Origin: Diplonema japonicum
Taxonomy: Eukaryota; Protista; Euglenozoa: Diplonemea
Direction of reading: 5' to 3'
NCBI GenBank assembly: GCA_964019335.1
Contig: OZ025687.1
Coordinates: 508,384 to 572,383, forward strand
DNA: 64,000 bases
Shown here: positions 3,890 through 56,066 of the stretch, piece after piece
Position numbering within the stretch: position 1 is the first letter of the stretch
Layout: every line of letters starts with the position of its first letter
The notes under the pieces: generated by a model
What the model was told of the DNA's origin: nothing
The model's database searches: none
The model's input: the letters and a program-made list of their open reading frames with translations, nothing else
Program-made: the position numbers and the translations under genes

Positions 3890-3930
<41 letters not shown>

Positions 3931-3989
3931 AGGACAAGGAAGACACCTATCAACACATCGCCACTCGCCTAACCTCTGAAAGGAAATAA
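3729..3989 (+). CDS. SEM1: SEM1/DSS1 proteasome lid subunit (exons 3729-3890, 3933-3989)
   Basis: Acidic motifs EEADDFSEF and WEEDWEDE typical of DSS1/Sem1; removing intron 3891-3932 removes the poly-Lys run. Confidence 0.85.
3891..3932 (+). other. 42-nt intron GT-(A)37-CAG
   Basis: GT...CAG boundaries, phase 0; splicing gives WEDE|DKEDTY. Confidence 0.8.
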
Positions 3990-4581
3990 AAAAACTTTAA
4001 AAACCCCACCCAAGGAGGGGAGAGAAGGGAAAAAAAAAGATAATTTTTAGAGCCTTTTGAACAAAAAAAAAGGAGGAGGGGGTGGGGCGGGGGGATCTTT
4101 TAGCCCCCGCTCCCCCCGTCATTTCCTGAAATTTAGAAAAACACAAAAAACTTTTTTTTTAAAAAATTCTTTTATGGAATTCCTAACTAACCGAGAAGTG
4201 GGGGGGGGGGTGGAAAAGGGAAAAAGTGTGTGTTTAAGGTTATTATTTATTTGTTATTTATTCTTTTCTACCTATATAGTTCCAGCACTCAACAAACCGA
4301 CGTGCGTTTGCTTTTCCCTGGCGTCTCGTCCCACCACCGTCGATCCCTCTGGCTTAACATGACAATAATAAAGATCTTACCCCCGTCGTCGCATAACGGT
4401 CAGTCTGTCCTTGTCTATTTAGTGTTGCTCCAAAGGCAGCGTGCATACCTCACCCTCTGCTCCGGGAGCTTCAGATAACTGTTGAAGGTGAGGAGCCACG
4501 AGATGTGTTCGAAAAAAAAAAAAAAAAAAAAAAAAAAACTGAGAGCTACCTAGGGGGAAGAGGGGAGAAGAAAAAAAGAAA

Positions 4582-7500
4582 ATGAACCTTCAAGAAGGCA
4601 ATGAAACAGCTTTATTAGCAGAGGTAGAAACAGGAGAGGCAGGTGGTAAGGTGATGGTGTGGGCTAAGGAAGAGGTGTGGATGGGTAGAAAGAAGGGAGG
4701 TGTCTGCATACGGGACATGTGCAGCGGGAGAGAGATTGCAGAAGTAACTGACAAAAGCGGGGAGGCTTTCTGTAGACAGAACACACACGCCACAGCAATG
4801 CTGCGACACGAAACGAGTGAAGTTGTATGGGTGGGGTTCAACGATGGTGGCATGGCCGTCATATGTGCTGAGACCTATCAATGCCGGCATGAGTGGAAAC
4901 CCCATACGGGCACGGTGCACTCCATCACGGTGTCTGATGGCCCCGACCCTACCTTCTACACTTCTGGCGAGGACCGCCAGATCCGTTCCTTCACAGGCTT
5001 CCCTCCAAAATGCACCGCCACCTACACGCAGCATCACGCCCCTGTCCTCTCTCTCCTTCACACTCCTACCGGTCTTTTCTCAGGCTCTTCTGACGGTTAC
5101 CTCTACCACTGGGCGTCTTCATCTCCCGCAACACACAAAGCCCATGCCAACGGCTGCCTTATCCTTGCCGCCCATCCACGAAACCCGCTTGAACTGTGGT
5201 CTGGTGGAGGTGACGGTGGCATCTGCATATGGGCGCACGAGGGCGGGAAGCCCCTAAAAATGACAAAGCAGTTGCAGCAACACCCGGGTCCTGTGACCAC
5301 GCTCCTGCAAGTTGCAAACAAAATGATCAGCATGGACAAGCACGGGGTGGTGGTGGTGTGGGACGGGTACGAAGCAGTGCAGCGGATATCCCCCGAAGGA
5401 GCAGGCGGGTGGCAGCGGCATGGGATCAGCGCAGGCTGCCTTGTGGGGCGCGTTGTGTCGTGGAGGTTTTGGACAACAGGCGGAGACGGACGGATCAAGG
5501 TGTGGGGGTGCCCCGCAGAGTCAGAAGCGCAAATGGTGTCGGACCTCATGACATGGAACAGCGAGTTACAAGCAGCAAACACCAACCTGGAAACCGCCGT
5601 TGCCGCTCTGCAGGTACGAGCAGATCACGTCGCAGAGGTCACCGAGTCCAATGCCAACATAGAAGCCACCATGCACTCTGCGATCACGTCTTTGAAGAAT
5701 GTGCACGAAGCCCAGCTGAAAGAAGCTAGCAAACACCACCTCTTAGAGCTTGAGAAACTTCGCAACATGCACTTTGCACACACCAAAGGACTCAGTTCCA
5801 AGCACACTAAAGAAGTGGCGGCGATTCGTGCTGAAGTAGCAAGCATTGAGGCTGCGAAGATAGAGATGATGGAGCGCTACGAGGTATGCAGTGCAGCATG
5901 ACCGTCACAACCCCACAGGAGGACACACAGCAGAAGGAGGAGGAGATGCAAGACGCTCTCAAGCGTGAGAGTGTGTCTCTGAAAGGTCTCACAAAGCAGT
6001 GCGAGGTATGATGACACCACCTGTGCAACACCGACAGGCTGAGGCTACAGAACTGACAAGAACATACACTGCCGAGATAGAGGGGATTCAACACAAGTGC
6101 TCAGAGGAAGTCCGAGGACTCACCGAAGAACTGGAACGGGAACAAGAAAGGTGTCGTAAACTGGAACAGCAGGTTGAGGAAAGCACTGAGTATGTGAAGG
6201 AGGTCCGTGAACGGCAAGCAGAGCTTGCCGAGATCGTGAAAGGAATGCCTGCTGTGAAGGCTTTGGAGGAGAAGGTAGTGGCTCTTGAGGAAGAACTGAA
6301 GACAGTCCTAGATGTACCTGCACCTCTGGTTGCTTCCCTTCAGACTGAAATTGAAACCTTGCAAACCGCGCTTGCTGAGAAGGAGCGGGAACTCTCCCGC
6401 CCGGTCCCGACAATTCCTGTTGCTGCACCTCCTGCCCCCGATCTTGTCTGCTCCCTGCAGGCTGAGGTTGCGCTCCTCCAAACCAGGCTTATGGAGAAGG
6501 AACGGGATCACGCTAGCCGCCCAGTCGCGATCCATATACCGAAGCCCGCTCCTGTGACCCCCTATGCTGTCCCTAATGTGCACACACCACGAGCGCACCA
6601 GCAGGTCCTTGACGCCGTGGAGAGGTACAGGTCTGAAGTGCAGAAGTTGGGCGACGAGGTCTCTGTAGGGAAGAAGCACGAGTCTCTTAGCAGACAAGTC
6701 GACAGCAACAACACTGTTATTGCACATCTGGAGGCACAGCTTGACGCTGCCCTGCGCACATCCGGGGAACTGGAAGGCAAGGCATCAGGGCTAGAGATGG
6801 CACTTTCGAACGCACAGGCACAACTGATGGCCGCAAAGGCCGATCAGGAACACGCTGTCGGGACGCTGCGAGGAGTGGAAGCGTCGCTGGAAAAAGCACT
6901 ACATGAGAAACAGCTCGTGGAAATGCAAAACAGGACGTTGGAGGATAGGATGCAGGTGAGGATTGAGGAAGCGGAGGTGTTGCAGGGACACCTGGCCCTG
7001 TCACAGAGGACGCTGTGTGAGAAGCAGCAACAGTTTGAGGCGGAGAAAAACGAGTACTTAAAATGTACAGACAGGCTGCAGGAGGTAGTGGAAACTGTGG
7101 GGACAGAGAGGGACGTGCTGGGGAAGCTGGTGGGAACACTGGAAGGGGAGCTGAAGGAGGAGAGGCGGATGGCGGACGAAAACGGAACGCGGTGGGTGGA
7201 ATCCGAGACAAGCTTAAAAGTTTTAAAATATGAGAAAGAAGAAATGCTGCTCAAGACACAAGAAGCTGACTACGCGATGACACAGCTTACCTCAGCGAAC
7301 GCCGCCATACAAGATGAATTGTCTGCCATGAGGGACTCCCTGGCAGAAGTGTGCGAGTCAGAGAGTCACCTCAAGACAAGAATCATTTCCCTCCTTGAAG
7401 AACGTGACGCCTCCCTGCAAGACCTCGACTCCCTGAAGCTTGCGTACAACGACCTCGAGAGGGAGGCTCCCGTCATTGCCCCGCCAAATACCCTTGCCTC

Positions 7501-7651
7501 TGAGCTCTCCAACATCACTTCAAGCAGCCCATGGATCCTGTCCCAGCTTAAATCCCTCCAAGATGGGCTGGATCAAACCCACCTTACACGAGAGGAACTA
7601 CAAGCCAAGACAGCATACTTGGTGGATCTCATTGCAATGGCGGTTTCGTAA
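4582..7651 (+). CDS. WD40 beta-propeller + long coiled-coil protein (exons 4582-5883, 5919-6005, 6038-7651)
   Basis: WD-like repeats (HTGTVHSI...SGEDRQIRSF, SGSSDGYLYHW, SGGGDGGICIW, TGGDGRIKVW); introns 5884-5918 (35 nt) and 6006-6037 (32 nt), both GTATG...ACAG, join ORFs 4582 and 5999 in frame via a 29-codon exon. Confidence 0.8.
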
Positions 7652-7680
7652 TAAAAAAGATCGGCGGAAACTATGTATAC

Positions 7681-7716
<36 letters not shown>

Positions 7717-14083: not shown

Positions 14084-14374
14084 GCAAACGATATCGCCCC
14101 ATATCACTAACCCGTCTGGTCAATCCTGAATGTGATCTAAGAGCCTGTTTTGAAAGCATAGCAATGTTCTGTCCGGACACAAGGGAAGGGGCTGAACAGG
14201 GTTTACAGATATGAGGTTTTTTTTATTCTTTTTTTTTTTTTTTATATAAATATATGTAGAACACTCATTCCTTTTGTAGTTATTAGACGAAGTAAAAAAG
14301 TCTTTATTAAGAACGATTTTAAAAAGAAATAAAGCAACGCATCAGACCTTCCAGCACACCACACAGACACAACA

Positions 14375-16107
14375 ATGGGTAAAGTCCGGCTGAAAGAGCG
14401 TCTTCTGGACCTTGATCTCATAAAGCCTCATGACATGTCTGATGACTTCGAAGGGGTGAAGGGCGGGGGCGTGGAATCATTCTTCAGAGGTGGGGGTTGC
14501 TTGGGGTTGGGAAGTAGGTTATTTAAGGGTAAATACAGAAAAGGTGGGAAGCCTGTAGTATTGAAACAGCTGTTTGTTGGAGGGGAAGAGGTGGAGGAAA
14601 AGGGTCCTGTAGAGATGGAGCTGCACATCCTGAAGAACTACGGGCATGAACATCTTGTGAAGTACGAGGCCGCGTTCATGACGGAGCACATCGACGATGG
14701 TGTGTGGCTGGTCATGGCGCAGTGCGCGGGAGGGTCCATCGCTGATGCCATCCGCATGCGCGACTTGCCGTTCAATGAAACTCAGCTGCAACAAACATTG
14801 CACGGCCTCCTGCGTGCTGTGACGCACCTCCACGCCCAGAACTACATACACCGCGACATCAGAGGTGAGAACATCCTGCTGACTGCAGGGGGCAAGGCAG
14901 TGCTGGCCGACCTTGGAACTGTGGGCATATCTAACTCCACTTCCGCACAGGTGGGCACCAGCCACTGGATGGCTCCCGAGATGACCTCTGCTTCGAGCGT
15001 TCCATATGACGTCAAAGTCGACATTTGGAGTATAGGCATCACCATCATCGAGATGGCAGAGATGGAAACCCCTGCTGCCAGAGATGTATGCACATGTTTC
15101 ATCACACACCACACATAGGGCGGCAACGAGACCACGACACAGATGCATTCACCAAAGTTCGCCCACCCGTCAACTTGGTCCAAGTCCTTGAACAGGCTTG
15201 TGACCACATGTCTTGAGATGGACCCTAAGAAACGGCCGTCTGCAGCGAAGCTGCTTGCGTCGGATTTCATGAAACAGAAAACGAAAAAAGAAGAGACGCT
15301 AAAGGAGCTCGTTAAGGTGTGATGATAAGTTACTCAAGACAACCACTGCAGATCGTGAACCACCTTCGCCAGCAGGAAGAGACTCTTGCTGCGGAGCGCA
15401 AGTCAAAATGGCTAGACGATGACGATGACTCCACCGAGTGCGACACAGTGCTGGGGAACTCTATCAGCTCGCAAGTACTTGAAGAAAAGACACAGAAAGA
15501 AATGAGCATCCACTTCGACCCGGTCGTGTCGCCCCCGCCCGTCATCAAGGAGGTATGCGCATAAGATGACACTCACGACACACAGACGACACCAGCACCT
15601 CTTCTGCGCCCTGAGAGCAAAGAAGCTCTCACGGAGAGAAATGCAGAGCTCAGAAAGAAGGTAGCAGCACTAAAGAACATTCTGAAGTGCGAACTGTTGT
15701 TAAAGGATGAGGCAGTGTTCCATAAAAGAAATAATAAAAAAACAACAAGTGCTGTGATGCTGAAGAAGATGGAGCAGGAGAAAGAGCTCCTAGCCGAGAA
15801 GGCGGCCACTATCAAGAAGAACCTGCTAAGCATGAAGACTAGCATCACGAATCTTGGAGTGTCTATTTCTGATGTGTCCTCGCGTCTGAGTGATACCTCT
15901 GCCCCTGCCACTCACACTTCTACTTCCCACCCGGAGCCTCTGCGGCGGCTGAATACTTCAACGGGGCTGGTCAAAACGGCCTCGCCTAGCCCCTCTGTGG
16001 TCACAAGAAGCCTCACCCAAGCACAGTCTCAAACTCACTATGTCCCCGGTTCCCTGCGCAAGAATGCAATGCTCAGTAGAGTCCGTAGCGATACAAAGAG
16101 AAAGTAA
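14375..16107 (+). CDS. STE20-like Ser/Thr kinase with C-terminal coiled coil (exons 14375-15085, 15119-15316, 15352-15552, 15586-16107)
   Basis: HRDIRGEN, ADLG, GTSHWMAPE, DIWSIGITIIEMAE; introns of 33, 35 and 33 nt restore subdomain XI (CLEMDPKKRPSA). Confidence 0.85.
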
Positions 16108-16284
16108 TGCCTTCATTTGGCCTTATTCGGGTTTCTTCCACTTCTGCCCCCCCATGTTCTGCCCGTATATGTTAGTGTTACGGTTATTGCTAAGTCCTTT
16201 CATGCCATCTTTGTAATTTTGTGAGTATTATTGCAGCAATGCCAACCATTCAATTTATCTTCGCGCAGGAGCCAAGAAGTCAAA

Positions 16285-17871
16285 ATGGCAAAAAGGGGAA
16301 CGGGTGTGTACAGCAGGGGTGAGAAGGTTGAGGTGTTCTACAGGTTCGAGCATGACGGGAGCGGTGACGGGGCTGAAGGGTACTTCCCAGTATTGACGCC
16401 CGACGCGGGTCTATTCAACCCCAGGTTGGGTCTGACGGACAGCTGGCAGGAGGCAGTGGTGCTGCACGACTTCAACCCGCAGACATACGACGAAAAAGTG
16501 AGGGACACATGGGTGATCGTTACAATGTCCCACGGGAGGTGGGCCAACCGCAAGGGTCAGTCCCTTGACCTCAGTGACAAACACAACACAACAGTCATGA
16601 TGAAGCCCTGTGACGTCAGGTTCCCTGAACAGCAGCAGCCGCTTCTGTCCTTCCTGTGCGTCCGTTGGGGTGGTCCGTACCCCATCCCTGAGCACTCCGA
16701 CGATGGTGAGTTTGGTGGGTGGGGTGACATCGGCACCTGCATCTGCGACAAATACATCAACACCTTCTTCCAAGTTGTTTACAATGAAGTGGGTCCCAAC
16801 TACGAGGTGTACTCGTGCTTCGTGTCGCAGTCTGCTGACTTGCAAAAAATATATGGTCCCGGTGTCTCTGGGCTGCTGAAGGGTAAGCACAAGGCAGGTC
16901 TGTACTACCTGTGGCCTGTTGCGTGGATGGACTGCAACGAGGGTCAGACGGGTTACGTCGAGAAAGATGCCATGCTGACGTTGATGAAGAACATGGAATG
17001 CGCGGGGATACCCAGCAGGCACCCGCACCCTTCTAACTTGTACCACCTCTTCGCCTCCAAAAGTTGGACTGCGACAATGTGCCTGTCGCAGGGGTTCAAT
17101 GTGCCATGCACCACAAAGGTTAACCGCGCACAGATTCTGGACAACCCCCGTGCCAGCGCCAAGCAGGCCCTCGAAGCACTGACCGTACTGCAGAAGGCAA
17201 AGCATGGAGTGGTAGAGAAGAACCACAGCAACATCTCAGGTGTCGCGAAGCTTGGCTTCTCGTGGGAGGCACAGGTATGCTGGAGGTAACTAACTATCAA
17301 CGTCACACAGGATGTGCTGTTCTTCAAAGGAGTCGAGCAGCTGGGGGGCCGCTTAGAAAGGCTGCTGGAGCAAGCGGGGTGCATGGCCGACTGCATCTAC
17401 GTGCAGGAGAATGTACCGAATGACTGTGAGATCAGAATATATTTGATAGACGGGAAGCCTGCGAAGAAATTGTACTCTAAATTCTGTGAAGTGGACAACA
17501 GCGGGTCGTTCAGCAGCTTCAGGAGGATCGAGGACAGAAACATTGTGCTGAAAGAGTGGTTCGGCAATAATGACGCGGGACTGGCTGATGCGGAGAAGCA
17601 GATCGCTGCGCTGTGTGACAAGTGGCTGGTTTGGTTGAGGGCTGAGTGCTCTGCACCTCCTGCTGTGTGCAGAATGGACTTCTTCGTGAAGCTCCACGGC
17701 CCAACGGCAACTGTGACCACTGGAGAGCTTACTGAACAGGGTGCTTCTATGCTCGGTTGGGCTGAAGGGCCGCAAGTCACCTTCAGCGCCGTCGTTCGCG
17801 AGTGCCTCAACCAACAGCCTATCCCCAGCAGGTCCAGCCCACCGCCTCAGAGGAGAAAAATTGAACAGTAA
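16285..17871 (+). CDS. Putative ATP-grasp-fold protein (exons 16285-17274, 17311-17871)
   Basis: 36-nt intron 17275-17310 (GTATGC...AACTAAC...CACAG); motifs VAKLGFSWEAQDV, YVQENV..DCEIRIYLIDGK, RMDFF...GELTE. Confidence 0.7.
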
Positions 17872-18130
17872 GCGCCCCTGCAATATCCCACCACAGTGTC
17901 AATTAGGGAGATATAACTGCACCTTTCTGTTCTGCCCCCAACCCAAAACTTTCCACACACACACACACACACCCCTCTTATCATATATAGTCAAGAGTAC
18001 CATAGTCATCAGCGAAGTGTCGCCGAAAGCAGAAGGGAAGGGCGGCACAACCTTTCCCCCTTTCAGTTTTGCGTCTCTCCATAGGACCATTGTCTTTTTT
18101 ACTTCTTTATATCCCCCCTTTTATTCCTTC

Positions 18131-21100
18131 ATGTCACCATCACCCCTTCCATCCCCTGCAGGAGGGTGGTCCCACTCCCTCATGTCGACCGTGACTGGGG
18201 CGGTGATAACGTTGGTGATGGTGGTGATGGTGCACGGCGGGGGGGACGTGTCAGGGTATTGCTGCTATCTATGTGGGAATGCTACGTTAACGGAGGTTGA
18301 CGAGTGCAGTGCTTGCTATGGGTGTTGGGATGAGAAGAGCTGGTGTTCGTCGAAGGACACATGTGGGGGACAGTGTGGGGGTACGTGGTGCACCGAGCAC
18401 CCGACCACCCCACCTATCATCCCACCAGCTCCTTCGCATCTGGTTCCTCCTGAACAGTGGTCAATAGTAGTGCCCACTGACAGTGTGGTTGGGAACCCTG
18501 TTATCAAGGGCTCCTACGTCTACTGGGTAGAGTATATCCCCGCAGCCAATAAGGCAACCCTCCACAGAGCATCCCTTATCAACGAGACCGATCGCGGCTT
18601 CACGCCCGTTGGCAACCCCAACGACCGGATCACCTCCGTCTCTGATCCCTTCACACCGCTCTCCAACATCATCGTTGTCTCCTACGGTGTCAACAACGAC
18701 GACTTCACCATCATCGAAGGCTTCCAGTCCACGCAAACCCGCCCCCTATCCGTTATCTGGTTGAAAGTTGTTAACACCATTGCCCCCATCGCTGTGTCTC
18801 CTGTCGGGATTTACTGGACTAACACATCAGGCTACCTAGAGTGTGTGGATGTTGAATCAACATCTTTCAAATGGGCGTACAATGCAAAGGCCTCCGTTCT
18901 GTCCTATCCCATAGTTAGCGGCCAGAAAGTGTTCATCACAGGCCAGTGCGGTGCTTCTGGGAACCTGTGCATCTTCGCCATCGATGCGAACGAAGGGACA
19001 CGGCACTGGGCAGTCGACATCCTCGTGAAATGGTGGCTGCCGCAGATATCCGTCTTCAAGACCACAGTTGTAGTTACCACGACGCACTTCACAGAGTATG
19101 AGGGGCTGTACAATAAGTCGGAAATAGTTGTTGGCGACCCCGACGGGAAGGTCACGGGCTACGATGCTGACGTAGGGGTTGTCAAGTGGAGCTTCAACGT
19201 GGCTGGCGCTGTGGGGGTGCCTAGCATGACACAGCTGGTGGTCAACAACAACAAAACACGTGAAGTACTTGTTTTCACGTCGTGCAAAACACCTCCAAAG
19301 ACACCACCGCAGGCAGCACAGCGAGACCAGTGGACGACCTGCACTGTGTGGGGCATTGACGTTAGCATGTTGATGGCGAACCCCATCACGGGCGCAGCCG
19401 TTTTGTGGCAGGTAACTCCCTTGTACTACGTCGCAGTGAGCCCACAGCAGGTGCTTGGCAGAACGGTCTTCGTGTCGATGGCCTCGTTCAACGCCATCTC
19501 GACGATGGGCTCTGGAGGGGTGTACCACGACAAGCAACTCGCGTCAGTGGACATCTTGTCGGGCAACGTCACTTGGGCCATCACCAGCATCCCCGAGCCT
19601 AGGAACGGCACTGTGTACCCTTCGCTGCGCTACGCACTGGACACCAAGGTGGACTACCTTGTGTGCAACTCGAAAGCCCACATCTACAAATACATTCTCG
19701 GAACTACCCCAGCACCAGCAGCACAGCCCACAGGAAAGACACCTTTCACGAGGACGCCCCTCTTCTACGTTGCTATCGGCGCGGCACTTTTCGTGACCAT
19801 CGTGGCACTGCTCGTAAGGTGGTGCTTGCGCCGCCGTGTGCCGAAGGACCCACCTCTCCTTGTGGACTCCGACACCTCTCACGAGGTCAACATGGACGAG
19901 GAGTCCCTTGCAAGGGGGTATCGCAGGTTGCGCCCCTTAGGGAAGGGGGGCTTTGGGGTGGTCTACTTGTGCGAGAGTTTGGACACCAAGGAGCTGCTCG
20001 GGATGAAACAGATCAGGTGTCTGAGCAAGAAGGAACAGCGCATCGCGGAAAACGAGGTGAAAATCCTGTCGAACCTCCCAAAGAACGAAGGCACCATCGA
20101 GGTGCTGAACGCCTTCACAGTCCCCAACATGGTGGTGATGGTGATGCCGTACTACAAGGCAGGCGACCTGTCTGCTTACATCTCGAAACTGGAGAACATG
20201 ATACCCGAAGTACAGATCATACACTACACAAGACAGCTTTGCCTTGCACTGAACCACCTCCACAAACAGCGTCCTGCCATTGTGCACAGGGACCTCAAAC
20301 CTGCTAACATTCTGATGTCGGAAGACAGACGGAAACTCGTGATCACTGACTTCGGCTTGGCAAGACTGGTAGACAAGACATACATGCACACACATGCAGG
20401 GACCATGGCGTACATGGCGCCGGAGGCATTTGACGGTCATTACACAAACAAGGTGGACATATGGTCCTTGGGGTGCGTTGTGTATGCTATGGTGAAGCGC
20501 AAGGTGAATGGGAAGGTGCTTTGCATCCACTCTGCTAAACAAGATTTCCTGAAGCAGATATCGGGAGACATTTCGAAGGCCGGCTACGGCGAGCTGGTGG
20601 TGGACCTTGTACGGCAGATGCTGCAGAACAACAGGCGGGCACGGCCCAGTGCTGAGGAGCTGCTTTTCAGGTTATCAAACAGCTTCCCGACTTCTCATGT
20701 GGTGCCTGTTACCCAACCGGAGGTGATAACGGTGAACACGCCTGTGAAGGCACCTGTCCAAGGGTACATGGCAGCGCTGAGGAATGTGAACGTTGAAACG
20801 TCGTCAGAAGAAGAAAGCGAGGTAAAGGAGCTATCTGCACCTGCTCAGGTCCCTGCAGCGCTGGGGTTCATGGCTGCACTGCGCAAGATGCCTCCTTCGT
20901 ACCAAGTGCCTACCTCCTACGCGACCAGCTCCTCGTCTTCCAGCACGCGAAACCACTCGTCAGTGCAGGACACCTCGCAAGTCATCACCCCACAAGCGCA
21001 GTCTTCACAGCCTACACAGCCTGCGCAGGTGGGGTTCATGGCGGCATTGCGAAACATCAACATCTCCAACTGCACTTCGTCTTCTTCTTCTTCATCCTCT

Positions 21101-34830: not shown

Positions 34831-34890
34831 GGTTTTACTCCCATTAGTTATCAGCAGTTACACAGGTCCGCTGATGCAAAAAAACACAAG

Positions 34891-35320
34891 ATGAGCAACA
34901 GCGACAGTGATTTCATTTCAGATAGTAGCAGTGGTCCAGCTTGCGTGGTGTGTGGGAACCACGGTGGCGGGAACCTCCTCTTGAAGTGTGTGGCGTGCGA
35001 CCTTGCTCTTCACTCCTTCTGCTGCCACAAGCCATTAGGTGCTGCGAGCCTGAAAATCACCAACTGGAGGTGCACGAAGTGCTTCAAGGGACACGAAGCA
35101 CGCAGCGAGCTGCTACCCAGGTACGCACAGCGCACTCCGTACATTACACAGAATACGGAAATACCGAAAGTTCAAATCGAAACACGACAAAGCAAGCGGC
35201 GTCAGCATCGCTACCCAAACTGACACCCCCAAGCCCATCCCCGTCCCCGTCCCTACCCGTTGCCCCGTCCGTTATCGTATTACAACATACACAGCATACC
35301 ACCCCCCTACAGGCATTTAA
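34891..35320 (+). CDS. PHD-finger protein (probable exons 34891-35120, 35152-35320; 3' end uncertain)
   Basis: C4HC3 pattern CVVC...LLKCVACDLALHSFCC...WRCTKC; 31-nt GTACGC...ACACAG intron candidate 35121-35151; unspliced ORF stops at 35223. Confidence 0.7.
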
Positions 35321-35335: not shown

Positions 35336-36956
35336 ATGGCATTCCTTATCGATGTTGGTAGCGACCTGTTTGGCACCAAGTGCAACGTGTCCCTTGAGTT
35401 CCCTGCGCGGCCCTCTGTCACAGAGCTCACTGCTGCGTGCGAGTCGAACTTTGATGTGAGGGCAAGGGCCCAACGCCCTGCAGGGTACCCTGACACGCCT
35501 TTCAAGGTTGAGACTTTCCAACTCTTCGACGAGACTCTCCTGCGGTGGGTTGACCTTTACAATGAGCAGCAGCTCCGCCACGGCTCTCAGCTCTGGTGCT
35601 TCCAGCCGGAGTCCATCTGGCACAGTGACGCCCAGGGCGTCATCCCTAGTGCCCAGAGAGCACCCGTCACTTGGACCACACCCCTTGGCTCCCCCAGGAG
35701 GGCCAGGATCGCTGCTGACGCTGGTGTCCCTCCCACTCTGTCCGAGAAGCTGCGCTCTGTGTTTTTCCAGATTGACGGTCAGAACAAGGGTTATCTCCTG
35801 TACCAGGACCTCGAGGGTACCTTCACGAGGTGCGACATGGCCTTCACGCAGGGCACAGCGGGCGATCTCTTCACGCTCGCCGATCAGAACAGGTCGCAGC
35901 ACATCACCTATGACGAGTGGGTCAACTTTGCAGTGAGGTGCCCGTCGGTGGTCGATGCACTGTTCTTCAGGATGCGCGACATGACGCAGGACATCCCCAA
36001 CTCCCCTCCTGGCTACGACGCACAGAAGCAGAGGCAGCAAGAGTTGCAGGACTACTACAAAGACTCGTGGAGCACTCCTGCCAAGGTGCAGCAGGAGAAG
36101 GACTTCCGAGTTGCAATGGAAGCCGAGAAGAGGAGGGCAGATGCTGACTCAGCGCTCAGGGAGCACCAGGATGCTTTGGAAAAGGCTCAGCAGGCAGCAC
36201 AGTTGCACGCCCAGCAGCATGCACGTGCCAGACAGATCGCCAGCGACCAAACCTCTGCCATGGACGAGGCGCAGAACGCGCTGCTCAAGGCGGAGCAGGA
36301 CGCCGCTGCCTTCGCAAACCAGGAGGCTGCTGCCCGTCAGGCAGCGGAACAGGCGAAGTCCCAGCGTGCTGCAGCAGAGGCTGCTCTCCGTCAGGCTCAG
36401 GACCAGCACCAGGCCGCCCAGCAGCAGGCGGACAGCGAGGCGGCAGCACAGTATGCTGCTGAGCAGCATGCGGCCCAGCAGCAGGCGGCTAGGGAGCAGG
36501 CGGCACGTGCTGCCAAGCTTGCAGCGGAGGAGCATGCCCAGGCACTGAGTGCAGAAAAGGCGCAGCAGGATGCTTTGGCTGCAGCACAAGCAACACAAGC
36601 TGCGCAGCAGGCTGCCCAGCAAGCCGCTCATCAGCAGCAGCAAGCAGAAGCTGCGGCACAAGCTGCGCTTGCGGCCCAGCAGGCAAGGGAAAAGGACCTT
36701 GCCAACTCCCCCTACCCCGCCGCGCCTGCACAGACCCCTTACCAGCCTTCTCCGCCTACCTCGGCAATGGACCCCAGGAGGGACTACGAGTCTGCCAAGA
36801 GGAGAGCGGACGAGCTGCGCCAGCAGAAGGAGGACGTATGTAAAGAAAACCTAAAATCAATATCCACAGGCTGAAAGGGAAGAGAGGGAGGCCTGGAACA
36901 AACTGTACTACAGCCCCGCCAGCCCACACTACCTGTCACACAGCCCGCAGCACTGA
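35336..36956 (+). CDS. BILBO1: BILBO1-family cytoskeletal protein: ubiquitin-like NTD, EF-hand pair, Ala/Gln coiled coil (exons 35336-36835, 36870-36956)
   Basis: N-terminus colinear with trypanosomatid BILBO1 NTD as recalled (F12, K15, W71, F89); EF-hands DGQNKGYL and DQNRSQHITYDE; 34-nt intron 36836-36869. Confidence 0.8.
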
Positions 36957-43265: not shown

Positions 43266-43930
43266 TCCCTTTTTTTTCCCCTCCCCCTTCTCCTCCCCTA
43301 TTCATCTATTGTGCCTCGAAGAGGCACAAGAATTTTTTTTTTTATGTACTTCTATTTCTTTTTTTGTTATCTATTGCTATATTTTCCTATGGTTTTTTTT
43401 TTTCTTCTTTTTTTTCTTTTTTTTATTGTGCAGGGCGCCGCGAACACCGGCCTCCTTTAACTCTTATATTTTTTTTTTCTTGCAGAAGAAAGTGAAAAAG
43501 TTCTCAGAATTCTTTCTTTTTTTTTTAAAAGAGAGGGGGTAAAAAAAAAAAAGAGATTTCTTTCCTTCGGTTTCTTCTCTCTCCTCGCCTTCCCACTAAA
43601 GTCAGGTAAGGCCGGTTTTATATCGGCCACCTGTTGAATTTTCTTTTTTTTTTTTTTTTTGAAATATATTTCACCTCTCCTCCTTCCTTTCCCTGGCACA
43701 AAGTGCTCGATTCATCACTTGGGTATTTATGTATTTATCCTTATTGGTATTTGAGTCAGAAAAAAAAGTTCTTTATTTTGAGCCTCTTTGAGAAAAAAAT
43801 AAAAATCTTGCTAGCATGTGTGTGCCTCACCCTCCTCCCAGTTACCTTTTTACACGTTTGCTTTCCTGTCAGGATGGGGCAATGAGAAATAAGTTGGGGA
43901 AAAAAAAAAAAAAAAAAAAAAATAGCTATT

Positions 43931-44997: not shown

Positions 44998-45037
<40 letters not shown>

Positions 45038-47357
45038 TCGCTTTTCAATGTCAACTTTATGGTACTTGCACAAACAAAAGGCTGAATAACCTTCTCCCTC
45101 CTCTCCTTTTTTTTTTTTCTCTCTCTCTCTCTTTTTTTTAAAGAATGTTTAAAAAGTAACCTCTCTCTAGTGGTTTTGGCGCTTCTCTTTCATCCTTGTT
45201 GCTATTTCCTTTTTTTTTCTCTTGACAATGCTTCTCAATAGGGGGAAAAGGAGAAAACGTCTTTTTTTTTTTTAAAAAAAAAGAAGAAAATACCAACTAG
45301 GTGCGCAAAAGTAAGACAAGGAAGCAATGACTGATGATTCAGTGGCAGGGTTATCTCCCCCCTTTTTTTTTTAAAAGTTTTTTTAAGTGAAGAAAGGAGC
45401 GGGGATCCCACTGCAGAGAAACCCATTGTTTAGTAGTGCGCAAGCCTTACAGGCCTTCCCCCCTTTTCTCCTTTTCATTTCTTCTGTTCGCTGTCAAAAA
45501 AAAAAAAAAAAAAAGAAATTTTCGCTTCAGTGCTCAAAGAGAAGACAACAACCACGACAACAACAACAACAAACAAAAAAAAAAAAAAAAGTGCTGCTTC
45601 ACATGAACAAAAAAGAAATCTCTTTCCAGGATAATGATTACCAGGTACCTAGGGCGACTTTCTAGCCCGGTAAGCATTATGTGAAACTCTACCTATTACG
45701 GATCCCTTTTTTTTTCCCCTTCTTTTTTTCATGCCCCCCTCCCGTCTAGCTGGTGCTCTTCTGCAACGCTGCGGAAGGGCATCTTCCCCTCTATTTCGAG
45801 AGGGTGGGGAAAAGGGGGGAAAAAAATTGAGGATTTGGGGAACACACTGTTTTTTCTTTTCTTTTTTTTCCCCCCCCTTAATGAACAGTGTGCTTCGTCA
45901 TGTCACACTGGAGAAAAAAAAAACCCCCCCTCTTTTTTTACACACGAAAAAAAAAAAAAAAACATTGGGGTAGGGATATCTTTGAACCTACGTTCCCTTT
46001 GCTGGGCTCATCCCCCCTCCCCAAAAATTACACGAAATCACTACACAATTTCTGCTACAAATGTTGGTCAGTTGTTCGCTATTTGTATGGGGTGTGAGCA
46101 AAAAAAAAAAAAAGCTCCCGTTTGTAGGCAAATAGCGAACCTAGCTAATATTTTGAGGGGAAAAACAAAAGATTTTTATACCTTCTCTCTCTCGCTCTCT
46201 CTCTCTCTTCCCACCCCCCTTTCGCGAAAAAAAAAAGATTCTTTTTAACCCCTTCAAGGACGGGAGGATATAACCAAAAAAAAAAGAAGGGAAAACAAAT
46301 CAAACATCTTTGAACGCCACCGAAAAGTGCTTTTTTTTTTCTCTTTTTTTAAATGTCTCTTTTTTTTTTTTTTTTTTTCTTGCTTATTCGTGTTTGATGT
46401 TCAAATTTTGCCATTGGTCCGCCCATAGCACTTTTTTGTTTTAACAATATTATTGTCGAGACTAAAAACTAGTTGATGGCAGCGTAATGAGCTATTTTAT
46501 GGTAAAATTCCGCTCGTGCGCACAGACAAATGGAGCGCCAAACTAGTTTTTTATGTTGTGTTTGTGAGGCCGAGGGCCTAGGGATTTATTTTTTCTTCTT
46601 CTTATCTGAATTATCAGTCTCCGATCCTTAAAGGGTTAAAAAAAGAAATAGAGTTTTCAAAAAAAAAAAAAAAAAAAAAAAAAAACAAGTTTACACTGTC
46701 CTTGCCCGAACTACGAGGAGATTGACAAAAAAAATGAGGGGAAAACTAGGGAAACAAAAGAGGAAAGAATTAAAAAAAAAAGTTTTTCTTCTTCTTTTCT
46801 TCCCCCAACCCCCCCCTTTTTTTTTGCTCTTTTTTCCTTTTAGAACGAATATTAATTTTTTCTTTTTCCATTTTTTTAACAGAAAAAGTATCAACTTTCT
46901 TTCTTTGTTTTTAAACCTATCTTCTTCTTTTTTTTTATAAAGATTATTACTGTGGGAAATAAAGCCGTACGGTATGCTAACTTTTGGGGGTGCAATGGAG
47001 GAGGGAAACGTTCTTTTGAAATCGTGAATGGTTTTGCTAAACCGCCTTTTTTTTTTCTTTTTTTCTTTTTCTTTTTCGCACGCCACTTCATGTAGCCTCG
47101 TCCACGGCTATACTGCCCAAAAAAAAAAACACGAAAAATTAGAAAATTGCAACACCCCGCCCCTCCCCTTGCCCACCCCAAATCAAAAGTTAGCATTCTT
47201 TGACTTTTTTCTTCTTTTTTTTTTTTTTTTTTACTTTCATTCCTTTCCCCCAGTAGCATATATTATTATTCTTTTTTTTCCTCATGAAAAAAAAAAAAAA
47301 AAAAAAAAAAAGAATTCCAACCACAAAAAGGCAAAAAAAAAAAAAAAAAAAAAAAAA

Positions 47358-48449: not shown

Positions 48450-48674
48450 ATGTCGACTCAGGTGTCAGCTGACTTCATCTGGAGGGTGGTCAAGGGGAAC
48501 AACGCTTTCCTCAAGAAGCAGAGGTTCGGGCGTGGGAAGGAGGGCGCCAAGCTCAGCACTGAGAGCAGCAACCTGCTCTCCTCCAGCTCCTTCAAGTACT
48601 CCGGCATTGCGCACAAGGGGCTTGGCATGCAGCTTTCTACTAACGGTGTGGTGTTCTCGCGCAGGTATGACCAT

Positions 48675-48764
<90 letters not shown>

Positions 48765-48923: not shown

Positions 48924-49011
48924 AATCGTGAGTATCAGGGTTTCGTATTTCACCACTCCACTCTACTACTCTACTCCACACCACTCACACTCACAGACAC
49001 AGACAGGAGAG

Positions 49012-50408: not shown

Positions 50409-50449
<41 letters not shown>

Positions 50450-51051
50450 GTGTCCGTGTCGTCTGAAGATAACATTAACTGGAATTAAAATGCAAGAAAG
50501 AAAACCAAAGCGTTTTTTTTTTTTTTTGCCCCTCCTTTTCATTTTTTCTCTCTTCTTTCATTTTCTTTTCTACCTTTATGCACGCACGAGAGGCCCTTCC
50601 TTCAAATATGCTTTTTTTTTTTTGTTCTGTTTTTTTTTTTTTTTTTTTTTCTCTTGTTGTATTATTACAGGGTATTCATTATACCCTCTTTTTTTCCTCC
50701 TTTTTTTTTTGTTTTACACGGTTTTTGTTTGGCTCATCCAACTAGAACTGTGCAGGGTTGCCTTTTGATCTCCCTTACTTTTTGTTTTCTTTTTTTTGGG
50801 GAAAAAAAAAAAAACAAAACAAAATAACATCAATCATCCCCTCTCCCCCCTCCCCTTCTTCTTTTTCCTTTTTATGTTCCCCCTTGTAAACATTCCCCCT
50901 CCCTTTGTGTTTTTCTTTTTTCTCTTTCCATCCCAATGTCATCTACGTCATTTACTAATTTAATCTTTTGTTTTTTTTTTTTTTCTGTTAAGACGGAACA
51001 AAAAAAAATCAAAAAAAAGAGGGAATTGGAAGAAAAAAAAAGAAAAAAAAA

Positions 51052-53082
51052 ATGACCTCAGCAAGCATGGCTTTGATATTTGGTGTCGTTGACGCACCAA
51101 AACCGCAACCCGTGCCCAAACCCCCCGAGGCAAAGAGAAAACCATCGGTCCCTACCCGACAGCAAAATTCAACAACGGGCGATACAAAACCTGCAGTACA
51201 CAAGCTCGAAGGAGTTGTGATGTGTGTTGCGTACGAAATAAGCGCAGAGAGTCTACAAGAAGACACCATCAAAGAAGTCATAAACCGTGTGTTTGAAATA
51301 ACAAAGAACACGTTCAGCCCGCAGAAGTACCACAACACCTCTGAAGTAGCAGCCATCAATATGATGAGAGCTAACGAGTACCTGAAGCCCTCAAAGGAAA
51401 TGTGCGAACTGCTACGTACCATCACCACTCTGAACAAGGACACTCTAGGCGTGTTCGACCCGACTGCAGACACCGTTCTCTCAGAATGGGAACAAGCCAT
51501 CGACAACGTCGACAACCTTCCCGCGGTGGAAGAGTTAAAAAACAAAATCTCGAAAAAAACCGCAGCAGCGGAAAAAATAAGCTGGGGGAGGTTGTTCTCG
51601 TTCAACGAAACACGCCAAACGCTCATGAAACACGTATCTCGAGGGACCATCGATGTTTCAGGTGTTGCAAAGGGCTGGGCGGTCGACACAATCTTCAACA
51701 AGCTGAAGCTAAAAGGCGGGAAAAACATTTACGTCAACTGGGGCGGCGACATGCGATGCTCAGGTCCACACCAATGGTCCATCCCAGTCATGGAACCCCC
51801 TCCTTTACAAGAGATGTTCTCCATGTGGCGAACCCACAGCCTCTCGTCTATCACGTCAACAAGCGATGAACCCGCTTACACATTTTCCGGCTCGTCCATG
51901 GCCATCGCCACCTCTGGCGACTATGGATCAGCATGGAAATACGGGTTTTTCCCTGTTTTAAACCCCGTCACTGACATTTCAACACCAATGCAGGCGAAAG
52001 GTGGTAGTATTGCGTCTGTTACTGTGAACGCTTACACATGTGCTGCCGCCGATGCTTGGGCAACCACTTTGTTGTCATTTCACTGTGTTTCAAACCTTGA
52101 AAAATGGCTCAGAAAACTCGAGCCTGTTCTGAACGAATCCGTGGTGACGATCTGCGTGCTGACCCGCGACGACCCCCCGAAACGCCACATTTACGAATAC
52201 GGGAAGAATGGAACGAATGTCAAAATTCGAGATTTTTCACGGCACATCCCCCACCAGGTCGCGCTGCTGTCGAACGGTGGGAACGAGAAACCCAAATACG
52301 TGTTTGCGTTGGACACCGTGCACGAGGTGGGCGAGTACTGTATTTTCTGCGTAGAAAAAACCTCGGCGATGGCGAAACTGACGTTTCTAAACGAGACCTT
52401 CCGCGTGTCGTTTGTTGAAGGGACGCCCTCCGGACGGGACATTGCCATGCACGTTGCATCCTCCCCATTACCCACCGACGAAGTTTCCGCTTCCTGCTTT
52501 TCAAAAGAAACCTGTTTCCAGATAGAACTCGTTGAAAAGATCGACGCTGGCGATCGCGACATCTGCGTTGCGAAGAAGTCCAGCACCACCGCAGCAAATA
52601 TAAAGATTAAAAAAACATGTTTGGTGACCGGTAGTGAAGGGGGGAAACGGTTTTACAAGAAGATACCAGACTCGCTGTACTGCATTCCATTGGTTTGCGT
52701 GTCAAAGGATGGTTTGTGGGTCCCAGGGATGCATTTTAATGTGTGTTCCGTGATGCCTCCTGCTCTTTCATTTGTCGTTTATAAAGGGATGCCCGAGAAG
52801 GCAGCCGCGGCCATCCTTAAGCAAGGGATTACCTTGGCTGTTTCTTCTCTTCTTCTGTCGGACTTTACGTCGCTTCGCAAGGCGCTTGAGGGGGCTGCTA
52901 CATTGATCCCAACTGCACAGGAAGACCGACTCACTTGCACTGTCACCCGTCTCCGAACTTTCGCTACGGGGACACTTGTCGTGGCGTCTGTTACAGCAAT
53001 GACCGCACCCAGCGACCCGAAGCTCCCGTTGCTGATTTCATCGAACATTCAGCCAGCTATTCTGACCCCGGCTGTTTTGTGA
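51052..53082 (+). CDS. apbE: ApbE (FAD:protein FMN transferase) fused to two degenerate flavin-reductase-like domains
   Basis: IDVSGVAKGWAVD, VNWGGDMR, AIATSGDY, SVTV....CAAADAWAT; C-terminal RDFSRHIPHQVALL, IDAGDRDICVA, VCSVMPPALSF. Confidence 0.8.
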   Translation: MTSASMALIFGVVDAPKPQPVPKPPEAKRKPSVPTRQQNSTTGDTKPAVHKLEGVVMCVAYEISAESLQEDTIKEVINRVFEITKNTFSPQKYHNTSEVAAINMMRANEYLKPSKEMCELLRTITTLNKDTLGVFDPTADTVLSEWEQAIDNVDNLPAVEELKNKISKKTAAAEKISWGRLFSFNETRQTLMKHVSRGTIDVSGVAKGWAVDTIFNKLKLKGGKNIYVNWGGDMRCSGPHQWSIPVMEPPPLQEMFSMWRTHSLSSITSTSDEPAYTFSGSSMAIATSGDYGSAWKYGFFPVLNPVTDISTPMQAKGGSIASVTVNAYTCAAADAWATTLLSFHCVSNLEKWLRKLEPVLNESVVTICVLTRDDPPKRHIYEYGKNGTNVKIRDFSRHIPHQVALLSNGGNEKPKYVFALDTVHEVGEYCIFCVEKTSAMAKLTFLNETFRVSFVEGTPSGRDIAMHVASSPLPTDEVSASCFSKETCFQIELVEKIDAGDRDICVAKKSSTTAANIKIKKTCLVTGSEGGKRFYKKIPDSLYCIPLVCVSKDGLWVPGMHFNVCSVMPPALSFVVYKGMPEKAAAAILKQGITLAVSSLLLSDFTSLRKALEGAATLIPTAQEDRLTCTVTRLRTFATGTLVVASVTAMTAPSDPKLPLLISSNIQPAILTPAVL

Positions 53083-53330
53083 TTTTCTTTTTATTGTGGT
53101 AACATTGAGATAGGTGTGCCTGACAATCAAGTAGACAGCTGCTTGTGCAGGGCGCCGCCCAATACTGGCCTTCTTTATCTCTTGTGAATTTTTTTTTTTT
53201 GGTTCGGCGTAGGAGGAACATGGTGTTTTGGTTGTGCGCCTTCAACCTCGCCCTTTGTCGCACTTTCGGGAGTCCTGCGGTGCCTCAGACGATTTCCCCT
53301 TGCCATTTTGCGATTTTTTTTTTTTTTCCC

Positions 53331-53369
53331 TTTCAGGCGTCCTGCCACATACCGCAGGTACCCTTAAAT
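53331..53369 (+). repeat. 39-bp dispersed repeat, copy 2
   Basis: tttcaggcgtcctgccacataccgcaggtacccttaaat. Confidence 0.9.
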
Positions 53370-53638
53370 ATCTCTTTTTTTTTCCTTTACGATTGAATCT
53401 CTGATTTGAGCATTTTTTTTATTTTTGGTGGGGTCGTTGTCTCTCACCCCCCCCCCCCCCCCCCCTGCAAAAGCTGTTAAATTTGTTTGCATACATTTCA
53501 ACAAAAAAAGAAGAGTTTTCACTTTTTTTTTCCCCTCTTCCCCCCCACCCTGATACAATCAATCGGCAGAAAAAGGAGGGGGTTGTCTGTAGGGGGGGGG
53601 GGGGGGGGGATACAACAAACCCAATCGTCCGTCCCAAC

Positions 53639-54145: not shown

Positions 54146-54179
54146 GGAATGATTTTTTTTTTTTTTCTATTCTTTTTTG

Positions 54180-54950
54180 AACGCGGTGCGGAGCAAGATG
54201 GAGTACGCGAACCTGGACCCGGCAGCTATGCCGAAGGCGACGTGGCTGCTGGGGTGGTGCCCAGAGGCTGCCAAGACAAGCCAAGGGCCTTACTGGTGCA
54301 GAAGTACCTGCTGGAGGTAGTCACGCGGAGGGATGCAGCGGTGGATGCGAACTGGACCGCGCACTGCAGACACAAGCTTACCCGTGGCGGGCGGTCGTGA
54401 CGGGGAGGGCGCACCCGACGCCGACGGTGTCTGAACTGCGAAGGCTGGGAGCGTCAGGAACAGTGATGGACAAGCTGCTGGGGCCGGTGCTGAGGTGGTT
54501 GGGAGGCCTGCTGTGGTGACGCGCCTGGTCGGCACACGGCGGTGACGACGTTAGAGCTGGCCCTCGACTTCGAGAGGAGATCGGGCTGCCGCTGGACGAC
54601 GGCGGGGAAGTGGGCAAGGTGGAGGACCTGGGCGTCAAGGCAAGGAGGCTACGGTATGTGCTGAGACGAGTCCAGGACCTGTACCACGCTGATGGCAGAG
54701 GGGTAGCGTTCCCAGCGGCGCGAGTGGAGCGCGTCAACTCCCTACGCTGTATCGGAGGACCGACCACACACGGGTATGACAGGAGGCCAGTACTCCCGGA
54801 ACGAACCATGAGTAGCATCGAAGGCTTGCGGGACAGGTACCTGTCGCAGACACCGACAAGGCTGCCCCGCAGTTTGACCACCGCAGTAGGAACCCAGAGC
54901 CCCCAGAACGGGGACAACGGGGACTAAGCACAGCTCGGCCGGTGAGCGCA
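54180..54950 (+). pseudogene. GC-rich degenerate coding fragment, possibly a 5'-truncated retroelement 3' end
   Basis: Abrupt GC-rich block between T-tracts; coding-like frames broken by shifts and stops (KMEYANL...WLLGWCP / ALLVQKYLLEVV...W). Confidence 0.35.
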
Positions 54951-55058
54951 AAAACGCATACCTTAAAAGAATAGTTTTTTTTTTTTTTTTTTCCCTCAGA
55001 AAAAAAAAAAAAAAAAGTAATACACACCCACAAAAAAAAAAAAAAAAAAAAGAAAACA

Positions 55059-55678
55059 ATGCATAATAAAATGGTGGTATCGTCGCCCCATGTTCACGAT
55101 GAAGATGCAAGCATGTTGTGTGCGTTGTTTCCTCAGTTAGATATGAACGACGCTTATTCAGTTCTACGAAGGCAAGGCAGCATTGAGAAAGCAGCCAATG
55201 TGTTGGTTGATGTAGAAGTTATTGACGAAGTCGTGGAGGAAGAGGAAGGGTTGTGGGACGACTGCAGACGCGAACTTCCAAATTTCCTTCGCTGTCCGAA
55301 ATGTTACTCATCTGACATTTTGCTGGAGGACGAGACCTCCACCGTCGTCTGTATTAAATGCCACCATCATTTCACAGAATCGATGGCGAAGAAGGGCGCT
55401 GTTAGGGCGATTGGGTCTGGGAAAACAAGCGTACCGAAGAAAAGCGTGAAGAAACCTTCTAAAAAAATGAAAGAGATTAAGCTTGAGCCGACCTCCCCTG
55501 TCGAAACAGACGTAACAGGGCCTATCATGCAGAAGCTGCAAGACACAAGGGCAGCTAAGGCCGCAAATCCTACGCTCCGCCTCGTAGTGAGCCACGCCGG
55601 AAAACCAAAGGAAAAAAAAGTTATCACAATTCCTTTGGTCGATGGGTACACCTCACTGATGAAACAGGTTTGATTTGG

Positions 55679-55713
<35 letters not shown>

Positions 55714-56066
55714 AGGCGCGGGCAAAATTTCGTCTAAGGAAACCGTTAAAAGGCCTAAGAATCCTACCAGAAGGGGTCGCTGTCTCGCCCTTGGAAATTG
55801 TGAAACTTCAAAATGGGCAGGAGGTGTGTGGGAAAAAAAAAATTATTTCTTTGTAAAAATGAGATTTAAAAAAAAACCCCCCCATAAAGGTGTTAGTCAC
55901 ATTTCAATCAGAATTATCCAAGACCCCCACAACCCCTGAGGGCAGTGTGTGGTTTCCTGACTCAGATGTGCATGGAGTTGGCACCTGTGAAGTTGTGCCT
56001 GAAGAACTAGAAGTGCCGACCAATGTTGAAAGTCCTGAAGAAGTACGCGTGTCAACGTCAGACTGA
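55059..56066 (+). CDS. CUE/UBA-like + zinc ribbon + ubiquitin-like (KHA/DCX-type) protein (exons 55059-55667, 55716-55823, 55890-56066)
   Basis: LCALFPQLD....SVLR..GSIEKAANVL; CPKC...CIKC; introns 55668-55715 (48 nt) and 55824-55889 (66 nt), both with in-frame stops, give LMKQARAKFRL...LQNGQEVLVT. Confidence 0.7.

What the first reader, a model, noticed from the sequence alone, without database searches (positions are those of the whole stretch)
3891..55889. Possible cis/trans splice code: tiny cis-introns have A/C-rich acceptors, T-tracts occur at gene starts
Seen: 14 frame-restoring introns of 42, 35, 32, 45, 33, 35, 33, 36, 31, 34, 99, 56, 48 and 66 nt. Donors are mostly GTATG/GTGTG. Acceptors are ACACAG, CCACAG, AAACAG and similar, with no U-rich tract. 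Long T-tracts followed by AG precede genes (3662, 47253, 50992, 54999). Known: euglenozoan SL trans-splicing uses polypyrimidine-AG acceptors. Inference: U-rich versus A/C-rich composition routes an AG to trans- or cis-splicing, implying cis-acceptor recognition without a U2AF65-bound tract.
Basis: partly seen in the sequence, partly recalled or inferred. Interest (0 to 1): 0.8.

Follow-up and report, generated by a model that had tools for sequence, protein, structure and literature searches.

The report
Tiny A-rich introns, no U-tract switch
This marine-flagellate DNA has real 31-99-base introns with A/C-rich ends, a feature already published for diplonemids, but the three mapped leader-addition sites lack long U-tracts, so the cis/trans choice likely rests on a nearby donor plus a mild pyrimidine bias rather than a U-versus-A/C switch.

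Summary
The window is likely a diplonemid gene cluster. All 14 introns are present: 4 are skipped in RNA-like contigs, 3 give exact matches to transcriptome proteins, 1 is supported by homologues, 6 are untested. Their 3' ends are A-rich, U-poor and G-poor. Thakur et al. 2025 (PMC12621601) already report GTATG donors, ~41-nt introns, an A-rich 'PPT' and retained U2AF1/2 in diplonemids. The binary code fails where I could test it: spliced-leader (SL) ends map to AGs at 14354, 16268 and 18161, none beside a long T-tract; 14354 looks like a cis acceptor, and T-tract AGs upstream of it are passed over. T10+AG precedes 7 of 23 gene starts versus 24% of noncoding positions (p=0.30). A graded bias remains: SL sites are more pyrimidine-rich and less A-rich (p about 0.015, n=3 versus 14, post hoc, from a stretch chosen for lacking homopolymers). 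Such a bias is known from Schistosoma and Ciona. No earlier scan finding on this.

The parts
3891..3932 (+). 42-nt candidate intron, GT-A37-CAG, in frame and stop-free
   Evidence: sequence only; no RNA or homologue test
5884..5918 (+). 35-nt candidate intron, WD40/coiled-coil gene
   Evidence: removal with the next intron joins 439 aa to 1000 aa; homologue search empty
6006..6037 (+). 32-nt candidate intron, same gene
   Evidence: 464 to 1000 aa
13519..13563 (+). 45-nt candidate intron
   Evidence: removal extends ORF 41 to 204 aa; untested
14353..14354 (+). SL trans-splice acceptor AG of the kinase gene (ATG 14375); A-rich upstream, short CCTTCC tract
   Evidence: SL-type loose end in X8; composition
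15086..15118 (+). 33-nt cis-intron
   Evidence: skipped in X8 and X1 contigs
15317..15351 (+). 35-nt cis-intron
   Evidence: skipped in X8; X1's contig reads through it
15553..15585 (+). 33-nt cis-intron
   Evidence: skipped in X8 and X1
16267..16268 (+). SL acceptor AG (ATG 16285); mixed C/T/A upstream, no T run over 3
   Evidence: SL-type loose ends in X8 and X2
17275..17310 (+). 36-nt cis-intron
   Evidence: skipped in X8, X1, X2
18160..18161 (+). SL acceptor AG (ATG 18182); C-rich pyrimidine tract
   Evidence: SL-type loose end in X8
35121..35151 (+). 31-nt candidate intron, PHD gene; weakest case
   Evidence: 110 to 132 aa, then runs over the next gene's likely acceptors; untested
36836..36869 (+). 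34-nt candidate intron, EF-hand gene
   Evidence: 512 to 528 aa; untested
48665..48763 (+). 99-nt (CA)n cis-intron in ribosomal protein L28e
   Evidence: removal gives P0001 exactly; Pfam PF01778
49852..49907 (+). 56-nt intron in folate-receptor-family gene
   Evidence: spliced tail matches homologue motif
55668..55715 (+). 48-nt poly-A cis-intron
   Evidence: removal of both introns gives P0042 exactly, 297 of 297 aa
55824..55889 (+). 66-nt cis-intron ending in AAG
   Evidence: as above
3610..3662 (+). T33 tract and AG before gene at 3729; putative SL acceptor
   Evidence: sequence only
47204..47253 (+). T-tract and AG before gene at 47358; putative SL acceptor
   Evidence: sequence only
50971..50992 (+). 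T-tract and AG before ApbE-family gene at 51052; putative SL acceptor
   Evidence: sequence only
54975..54999 (+). T-tract and AG before gene at 55059; putative SL acceptor
   Evidence: sequence only

Best explanation
Tiny GT-AG introns with A/C-rich, G-poor 3' ends are spliced out and a euglenozoan spliced leader is joined to AGs that lack a long U-tract; the choice between the two is likely made by whether a strong donor lies about 30-100 nt upstream, with pyrimidine content as a graded helper. Shown: intron removal (7 of 14 directly), three SL sites, the compositions. Inferred: one U2-type spliceosome serves both; both acceptor classes need a G-poor stretch; a GTATG/GTGTG donor close by commits the AG to cis-splicing (intron definition); a donor-less AG with a short Y-rich stretch takes the SL, probably coupled to 3'-end formation of the upstream gene; introns and 5' UTRs are kept U-poor, likely because U-tracts there would invite wrong SL addition; the long T runs are mostly the low-complexity background of 3' UTRs and spacers.
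For:: 4 of 4 introns skipped, SL-type ends at 14354, 16268, 18161; leave-one-out donor scores 3.1-13.0 bits for the 14 introns (12 of 14 at 6.7 or more); best donor 28-100 nt upstream of the three SL sites 1.6, 0.5, -2.6; with a donor matrix trained on the other 10 introns the 4 true donors rank 1, 2, 3 and 6 of 223 GTs in the RNA-covered stretch; 7 of the 8 unused GTs scoring 6.5 or more that lie among the top 13 and have a listed or absent acceptor lack an A/C-rich one (one exception, 16539). G at -20..-4 is 0.12 or less in 12 of 14 cis and 3 of 3 SL sites versus 7% of 86 unused exonic YAGs. 5' UTR-side sequence (-1..-40 of ATG) is A 0.50, T 0.11, like intron interiors (A 0.50, T 0.15). Precedent: weak donor and U-rich upstream favour trans-splicing in Ciona (PMC11155486, passages); more U and longer tracts at trans-spliced acceptors in Schistosoma (PMC5832876, passages); SL-exon2 isoforms at cis acceptors in trypanosomatids (PMC11613528, passages).
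Against: Absence of a donor at the three SL sites is weak evidence: only 15% of all 1433 YAGs have a donor of 6 bits or more in range, so 3 of 3 is expected by chance (about 0.6). Composition does differ between classes (A 0.12-0.29 versus 0.29-1.00; Y 0.59-0.82 versus 0-0.59; p=0.015 each; A at -4 in 12 of 14 versus 0 of 3, Fisher p=0.015), so composition may matter more than I assume. Two donors score only 3.1 (both untested introns). Donor absence alone cannot explain why most donor-less AGs take no SL. Only 3 SL sites, from one compact cluster chosen for lacking homopolymers. No experiment.
Confidence: 0.6

Rival explanations
1. Composition is the main router, but as pyrimidine versus A close to the AG (including the -4 base), not as a long U-tract: a Y-tract reader such as U2AF65 or a PTB-like protein would mark SL acceptors and another factor would read A/C-rich cis acceptors.
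For: A and Y differ, p=0.015; among the 7 confirmed introns p=0.018 and 0.025; -4 A 12 of 14 versus 0 of 3 mapped, 0 of 4 reader sites; pyrimidines 0.65 versus 0.56 at -61..-140 of 23 ATGs, p=0.0035; T 0.41 versus 0.35, p=0.04; X8 uses CCTTCCAG 14354, not ACACAG 14366.
Against: Site 14354 equals cis acceptors over -20..-4; Y-rich AGs at 18066 (inside the upstream transcript contig), 14279 and 14286 show no SL end; the 88-nt spacer before 49012 offers almost only ACACAG/CTCACAG-type AGs; an X2 contig starts exactly at the G of ACACAG 14366, a weak hint of alternative SL use there; first-AG scanning also explains 14354 over 14366; tests are post hoc with n=3.
Confidence: 0.25
2. One reading: long U-tract means trans, A/C-rich means cis.
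For: The four named sites are real T-tract+AG 59-105 nt before ATGs; no intron has a T run over 5.
Against: 3 of 3 mapped SL sites lack a T run over 4 in 45 nt; 16 of 23 starts lack T10+AG; no enrichment over background (p=0.30) or by strand (56 versus 57); the T15 tract before the kinase gene is passed over in X8.
Confidence: 0.05
3. The differences are neutral by-products of local mutation and homopolymer slippage (A-runs in introns and 5' UTRs, T-runs in 3' UTRs and spacers) with no role in splice-mode choice.
For: 116 T10 and 104 A10 runs on +; poly-A introns occur in homopolymer-rich genes, CA-type introns in compact ones.
Against: Strict asymmetry: A runs up to 37 but T runs of at most 5 in 14 introns; A/C-rich, G-poor ends separate used from unused donor-acceptor pairs.
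Confidence: 0.1

Closest known systems
Canonical introns of Diplonemidae, especially Diplonema japonicum (Thakur et al. 2025, PMC12621601; parts 1-4 of 8 read, supplements unavailable)
   Same: (G)/GTATG donor, CAG acceptor, median 41 nt, A as the commonest base in the 'PPT', poly(A) tracts, CA-rich motifs in related species, rare YTRAY, U2AF1/2 present.
   Different: That paper makes no cis-versus-SL acceptor comparison in its main text ('spliced leader' 0, 'outron' 0 occurrences). The species of this window was not determined.
SL trans-splicing of polycistronic clusters in Paradiplonema papillatum (PMC10161547; passages and section 7) and trypanosomatids (PMC6597758; passages)
   Same: One-strand gene cluster, 39-nt-type leader ending TTTATTG, short 5' UTRs; poly(A) site set at a fixed distance from the downstream splice signal (hinted here).
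   Different: Trypanosome acceptors usually have a clear U- or C-rich tract and almost no cis-introns; here mapped acceptors have only short or C-rich tracts and cis-introns are frequent.
Cis/trans competition in Ciona (PMC11155486) and Schistosoma mansoni (PMC5832876); passages read
   Same: Graded rule: weak or absent donor and more U upstream favour SL addition.
   Different: There cis acceptors still carry pyrimidine tracts; here cis acceptors are A/C-rich, so the contrast could be sharper.
U2AF2-independent (AC)m-(GT)n zebrafish introns (PMC4691745; abstract and outline)
   Same: AC-rich intron ends without a U-tract.
   Different: Those introns pair GT and AC repeats across the intron; 12 of 14 introns here fold no better than shuffles (z -1.4 to +1.2), and the (CA)n intron has no GT repeat.

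Membership tests
Diplonemid canonical U2-type introns | GT..AG ends, removed from RNA | tested here: met
   14 of 14 GT..AG; 4 skipped in contigs, 3 by exact protein match
Diplonemid canonical U2-type introns | (G)/GTATG donor, CAG acceptor, about 40 nt, A/C-rich 3' region | tested here: met
   GTATG 8 of 14, CAG 12 of 14, lengths 31-99, A+C 0.81
Diplonemid canonical U2-type introns | Removal by the U2 spliceosome (snRNAs, lariat) | not testable with these tools
   no genome held; PMC12621601 reports the components
Diplonemea (host lineage) | Euglenozoan SL plus frequent canonical introns | tested here: met
   22-letter loose end matches 'Euglenozoa 14' SL in PMC3795323 (that it is the Diplonema leader is recalled, the passage does not name it); kinetoplastids have three intron genes (PMC11613528). 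No tree was built.
Trypanosome-type SL acceptor | SL joined at an AG upstream of the ATG | tested here: met
   3 sites, 16-20 nt before the ATG
Trypanosome-type SL acceptor | Long U-rich tract next to the AG | tested here: not met
   longest T run 3-4 in 45 nt at 3 of 3; one site has a C-rich tract
Trypanosome-type SL acceptor | Upstream poly(A) site at fixed distance | tested here: inconclusive
   two X8 contigs stop 45 and 46 nt before the next SL AG, but contigs cannot show RNA ends
U2AF2-independent AC/GT bridged introns | Complementary repeats pairing the intron ends | tested here: not met
   only 55668 (z -2.4, -0.9 kcal) and 55824 (z -1.9) stand out
U2AF2-independent AC/GT bridged introns | Splicing without U2AF2 | not testable with these tools
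   needs depletion experiments
Euglenid/hemistasiid non-canonical introns | Non-GT-AG ends with end pairing | tested here: not met

The most novel reading that the evidence does not exclude
Diplonemids split 3' splice-site reading in two: U2AF65 (or a PTB-like protein) is kept for pyrimidine-rich SL acceptors, while thousands of 30-60-nt cis-introns, down to a pyrimidine-free GT-A37-CAG, are read through an A/C-rich 'ACAG' signal without it, which would explain why U2AF is retained in a species whose intron tracts are poly(A).
Probability: 0.15. Interest if true: 0.65.

Novelty: new member of a known kind. Interest (0 to 1): 0.3.

Why it matters
An intron-rich organism that also trans-splices nearly every mRNA from polycistronic precursors must keep SL off internal acceptors. 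Diplonemids with A-rich intron ends are a clean place to ask how, and the comparison needs only existing RNA-seq. The intron features are in print; a cis-versus-SL acceptor comparison for diplonemids was not found in searches, but Additional file 1 of PMC10161547 (sections on splicing and UTRs) and the supplements of PMC12621601 could not be read and may hold it. What this window adds is three mapped SL acceptors that argue against a long-U-tract rule and hint at a softer A-versus-pyrimidine bias.

Tried and rejected
No whole genome held, so no genome-wide statistics. Run search listed no holder on record as RNA; X8, X1 and X2 are treated as RNA only because they skip introns and (X8, X2) carry SL-type ends, X7 as DNA-like because one 6.7-kb contig runs through unspliced. 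Homologue search with the first WD40 exon found nothing among 7441 longer candidates. The 3729 gene looks DSS1/SEM1-like from recall, but Pfam, PDB and Atlas gave no supporting hit, so its 42-nt intron stays unverified. End-pairing as the intron signal: rejected. YURAY branch motif: 2 of 14 introns, one of them overlapping the donor. Rfam: no hit. Earlier findings: none for this genome; one unrelated tunicate note, not used. One search's metagene had one start off by one base; one search repeats the test with corrected starts. Gene starts are my own ATG picks (23; the ORF at 54198 and the transposase were left out of the start list); only three have mapped SL sites.
Full report
Setting. The window holds about 24 genes on the + strand separated by homopolymer-rich spacers; the only minus-strand coding hit is a DDE transposase fragment. 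No genome is held. Contigs of run X8 carry 16-24-letter loose 5' ends whose 22-letter form matches a euglenozoan spliced leader listed in PMC3795323 (one passage read). With frequent GT-AG introns, which kinetoplastids lack (PMC11613528, passages), this points to a diplonemid; that is an inference, no tree was built and the species was not determined.

The introns are real. All 14 segments are at the stated lengths. In the one stretch laid with reads (14262-18400), X8 skips 4 of 4 with GT..AG ends, X1 skips 3, X2 skips 1, and X7 runs through unspliced. None of these runs is on record as RNA. Removing the 99-nt intron gives transcriptome protein P0001 exactly, and removing the 48- and 66-nt introns gives P0042 exactly. 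The 56-nt intron restores a motif shared with folate-receptor homologues. Six remain untested; the 31-nt one is the weakest. Twelve of 14 lengthen an ORF; the 42- and 99-nt ones are in-frame inserts. At -20..-4 the acceptors are A 0.52, T 0.13, G 0.07, each beyond 5000 draws from 457 noncoding YAGs. They do not fold better than shuffles in 12 of 14 cases.

This part is in print. Thakur et al. 2025 (PMC12621601; parts 1-4 of 8 and a term search; supplements unavailable) report (G)/GTATG donors, CAG acceptors, a 41-nt median and A as the commonest 'PPT' base in D. japonicum, CA-rich motifs in four other species, and U2AF1/2 present even there.

The T-tracts are weak evidence. The four named sites exist. 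But the window has 116 T10 runs on +; 56 have an AG within 25 nt, against 57 on the gene-free strand, and 7 of the 56 lie within 150 nt of a start. Seven of 23 starts have such a site, against 24% of noncoding positions (p=0.30). A milder signal exists: 61-140 nt before the ATG, pyrimidines are 0.65 against 0.56 (p=0.0035) and T 0.41 against 0.35 (p=0.04), while the last 40 nt are A 0.50, T 0.11, like intron interiors.

Direct test. SL ends map to AGs at 14354 (X8), 16268 (X8 and X2) and 18161 (X8). The longest T run in the 45 nt upstream is 4, 3 and 4; the nearest T10 run is 111, 2025 and 3918 nt away. Site 14354 has A 0.29, Y 0.59, A+C 0.71, inside the cis range. The kinase gene is one of the seven starts with T10+AG, yet no X8 contig covers 14262-14353, so those upstream AGs show no SL use (contigs drop rare variants). 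A pyrimidine-rich AG at 18066 lies inside the upstream transcript's contig. So a long U-tract is not needed, and a Y-rich AG is not enough. Caveat: I picked this stretch for its lack of homopolymers, which biases the three sites away from T-tracts; genes in homopolymer-rich spacers may well use their T-tract AGs.

What speaks for a softer code. SL sites have less A (0.12-0.29 versus 0.29-1.00) and more pyrimidine (0.59-0.82 versus 0-0.59), p=0.015 each; T alone p=0.053, A+C p=0.064 (four measures, uncorrected). The -4 base is A in 12 of 14 introns and 0 of 3 SL sites (p=0.015; 30% in noncoding YAGs). X8 uses CCTTCCAG at 14354 rather than ACACAG 12 nt on, though first-AG scanning explains that too, and an X2 contig begins exactly at that second AG's G.

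Mechanism. Both classes share a G-poor stretch. True donors rank 1, 2, 3 and 6 of 223 GTs in the covered stretch, and high-scoring unused donors mostly lack an A/C-rich acceptor in range, with one exception at 16539. The SL sites have no good donor within 28-100 nt, although that is expected by chance for most AGs. I therefore favour: nearby strong donor plus A/C-rich, G-poor end gives cis-splicing; donor-less AG with a short pyrimidine stretch gives SL addition, perhaps tied to upstream 3'-end formation (two X8 contigs stop 45-46 nt before the next SL AG, a hint only; the coupling is established in trypanosomes, PMC6597758, passages). These steps are inferred. The same graded logic is reported for Ciona (PMC11155486) and Schistosoma (PMC5832876). 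Whether U2AF65 is bypassed is untested; the zebrafish U2AF2-independent class (PMC4691745, abstract) needs end pairing that is absent here.

Novelty. Intron anatomy: already known. A cis-versus-SL acceptor comparison in diplonemids was not found (searches; PMC10161547 passages and section 7; PMC12817076 passages), but Additional file 1 of PMC10161547 was too large to read and may cover it. Verdict: a real but largely described feature; the strict code is not met, a weak bias is plausible and cheap to test genome-wide. Interest 0.3.

Noticed in passing
window 3891-3932: Candidate intron made of GT, 37 A and CAG, with no internal pyrimidine or branch motif; would be an extreme minimal intron if spliced. 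Host gene DSS1/SEM1-like by recall only; no database hit.
   Followed up: partly
window 16223/16268 and 18115/18161: Two X8 contigs end 45 and 46 nt upstream of the next gene's SL acceptor, a hint of a fixed poly(A)-to-SL spacing about as long as a tiny intron.
   Followed up: no
window 14366: An X2 contig begins exactly at the G of ACACAG, 12 nt after the SL site used in X8; may mark an alternative SL site at a cis-like acceptor.
   Followed up: no
window 692-786 and 53313-53408; 43426-43478 and 53143-53198: Two dispersed noncoding repeats of about 84% identity (95 and 55 nt); no Rfam match. The first contains two CAG and a CAG|GTA.
   Followed up: partly
window 40955-42359, - strand: Broken DDE_Tnp_1_7 (piggyBac-like by recall) transposase, the only minus-strand coding hit.
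   Followed up: partly
window 34831-34890 and 48924-49011: Spacers of only 60 and 88 nt between stop and next ATG, with no T run over 4; the second offers mainly CTCACAG/ACACAG acceptors.
   Followed up: partly
protein P0051 versus window 49852: A folate-receptor homologue departs from the family motif right at this intron position, as an unspliced intron at the same site in a relative would.
   Followed up: no
window 15317-15351 in run X1: X1 (about 99% alike, a relative or other strain) reads through this intron with a 2-letter deletion while skipping its neighbours: retention, DNA in the run, or a strain difference.
   Followed up: no
5' UTR regions, e.g. 846-872, 47333-47357, 55032-55058: Many start codons are directly preceded by A runs; the last 20 nt before 23 ATGs are 59% A.
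   Followed up: partly
window 51052-53082 and 7890-12239: Intron-free ApbE-family (flavin transferase) gene, a family mostly known from bacteria (recalled); and a GC-rich 1449-aa likely secreted protein with no Pfam hit.
   Followed up: no
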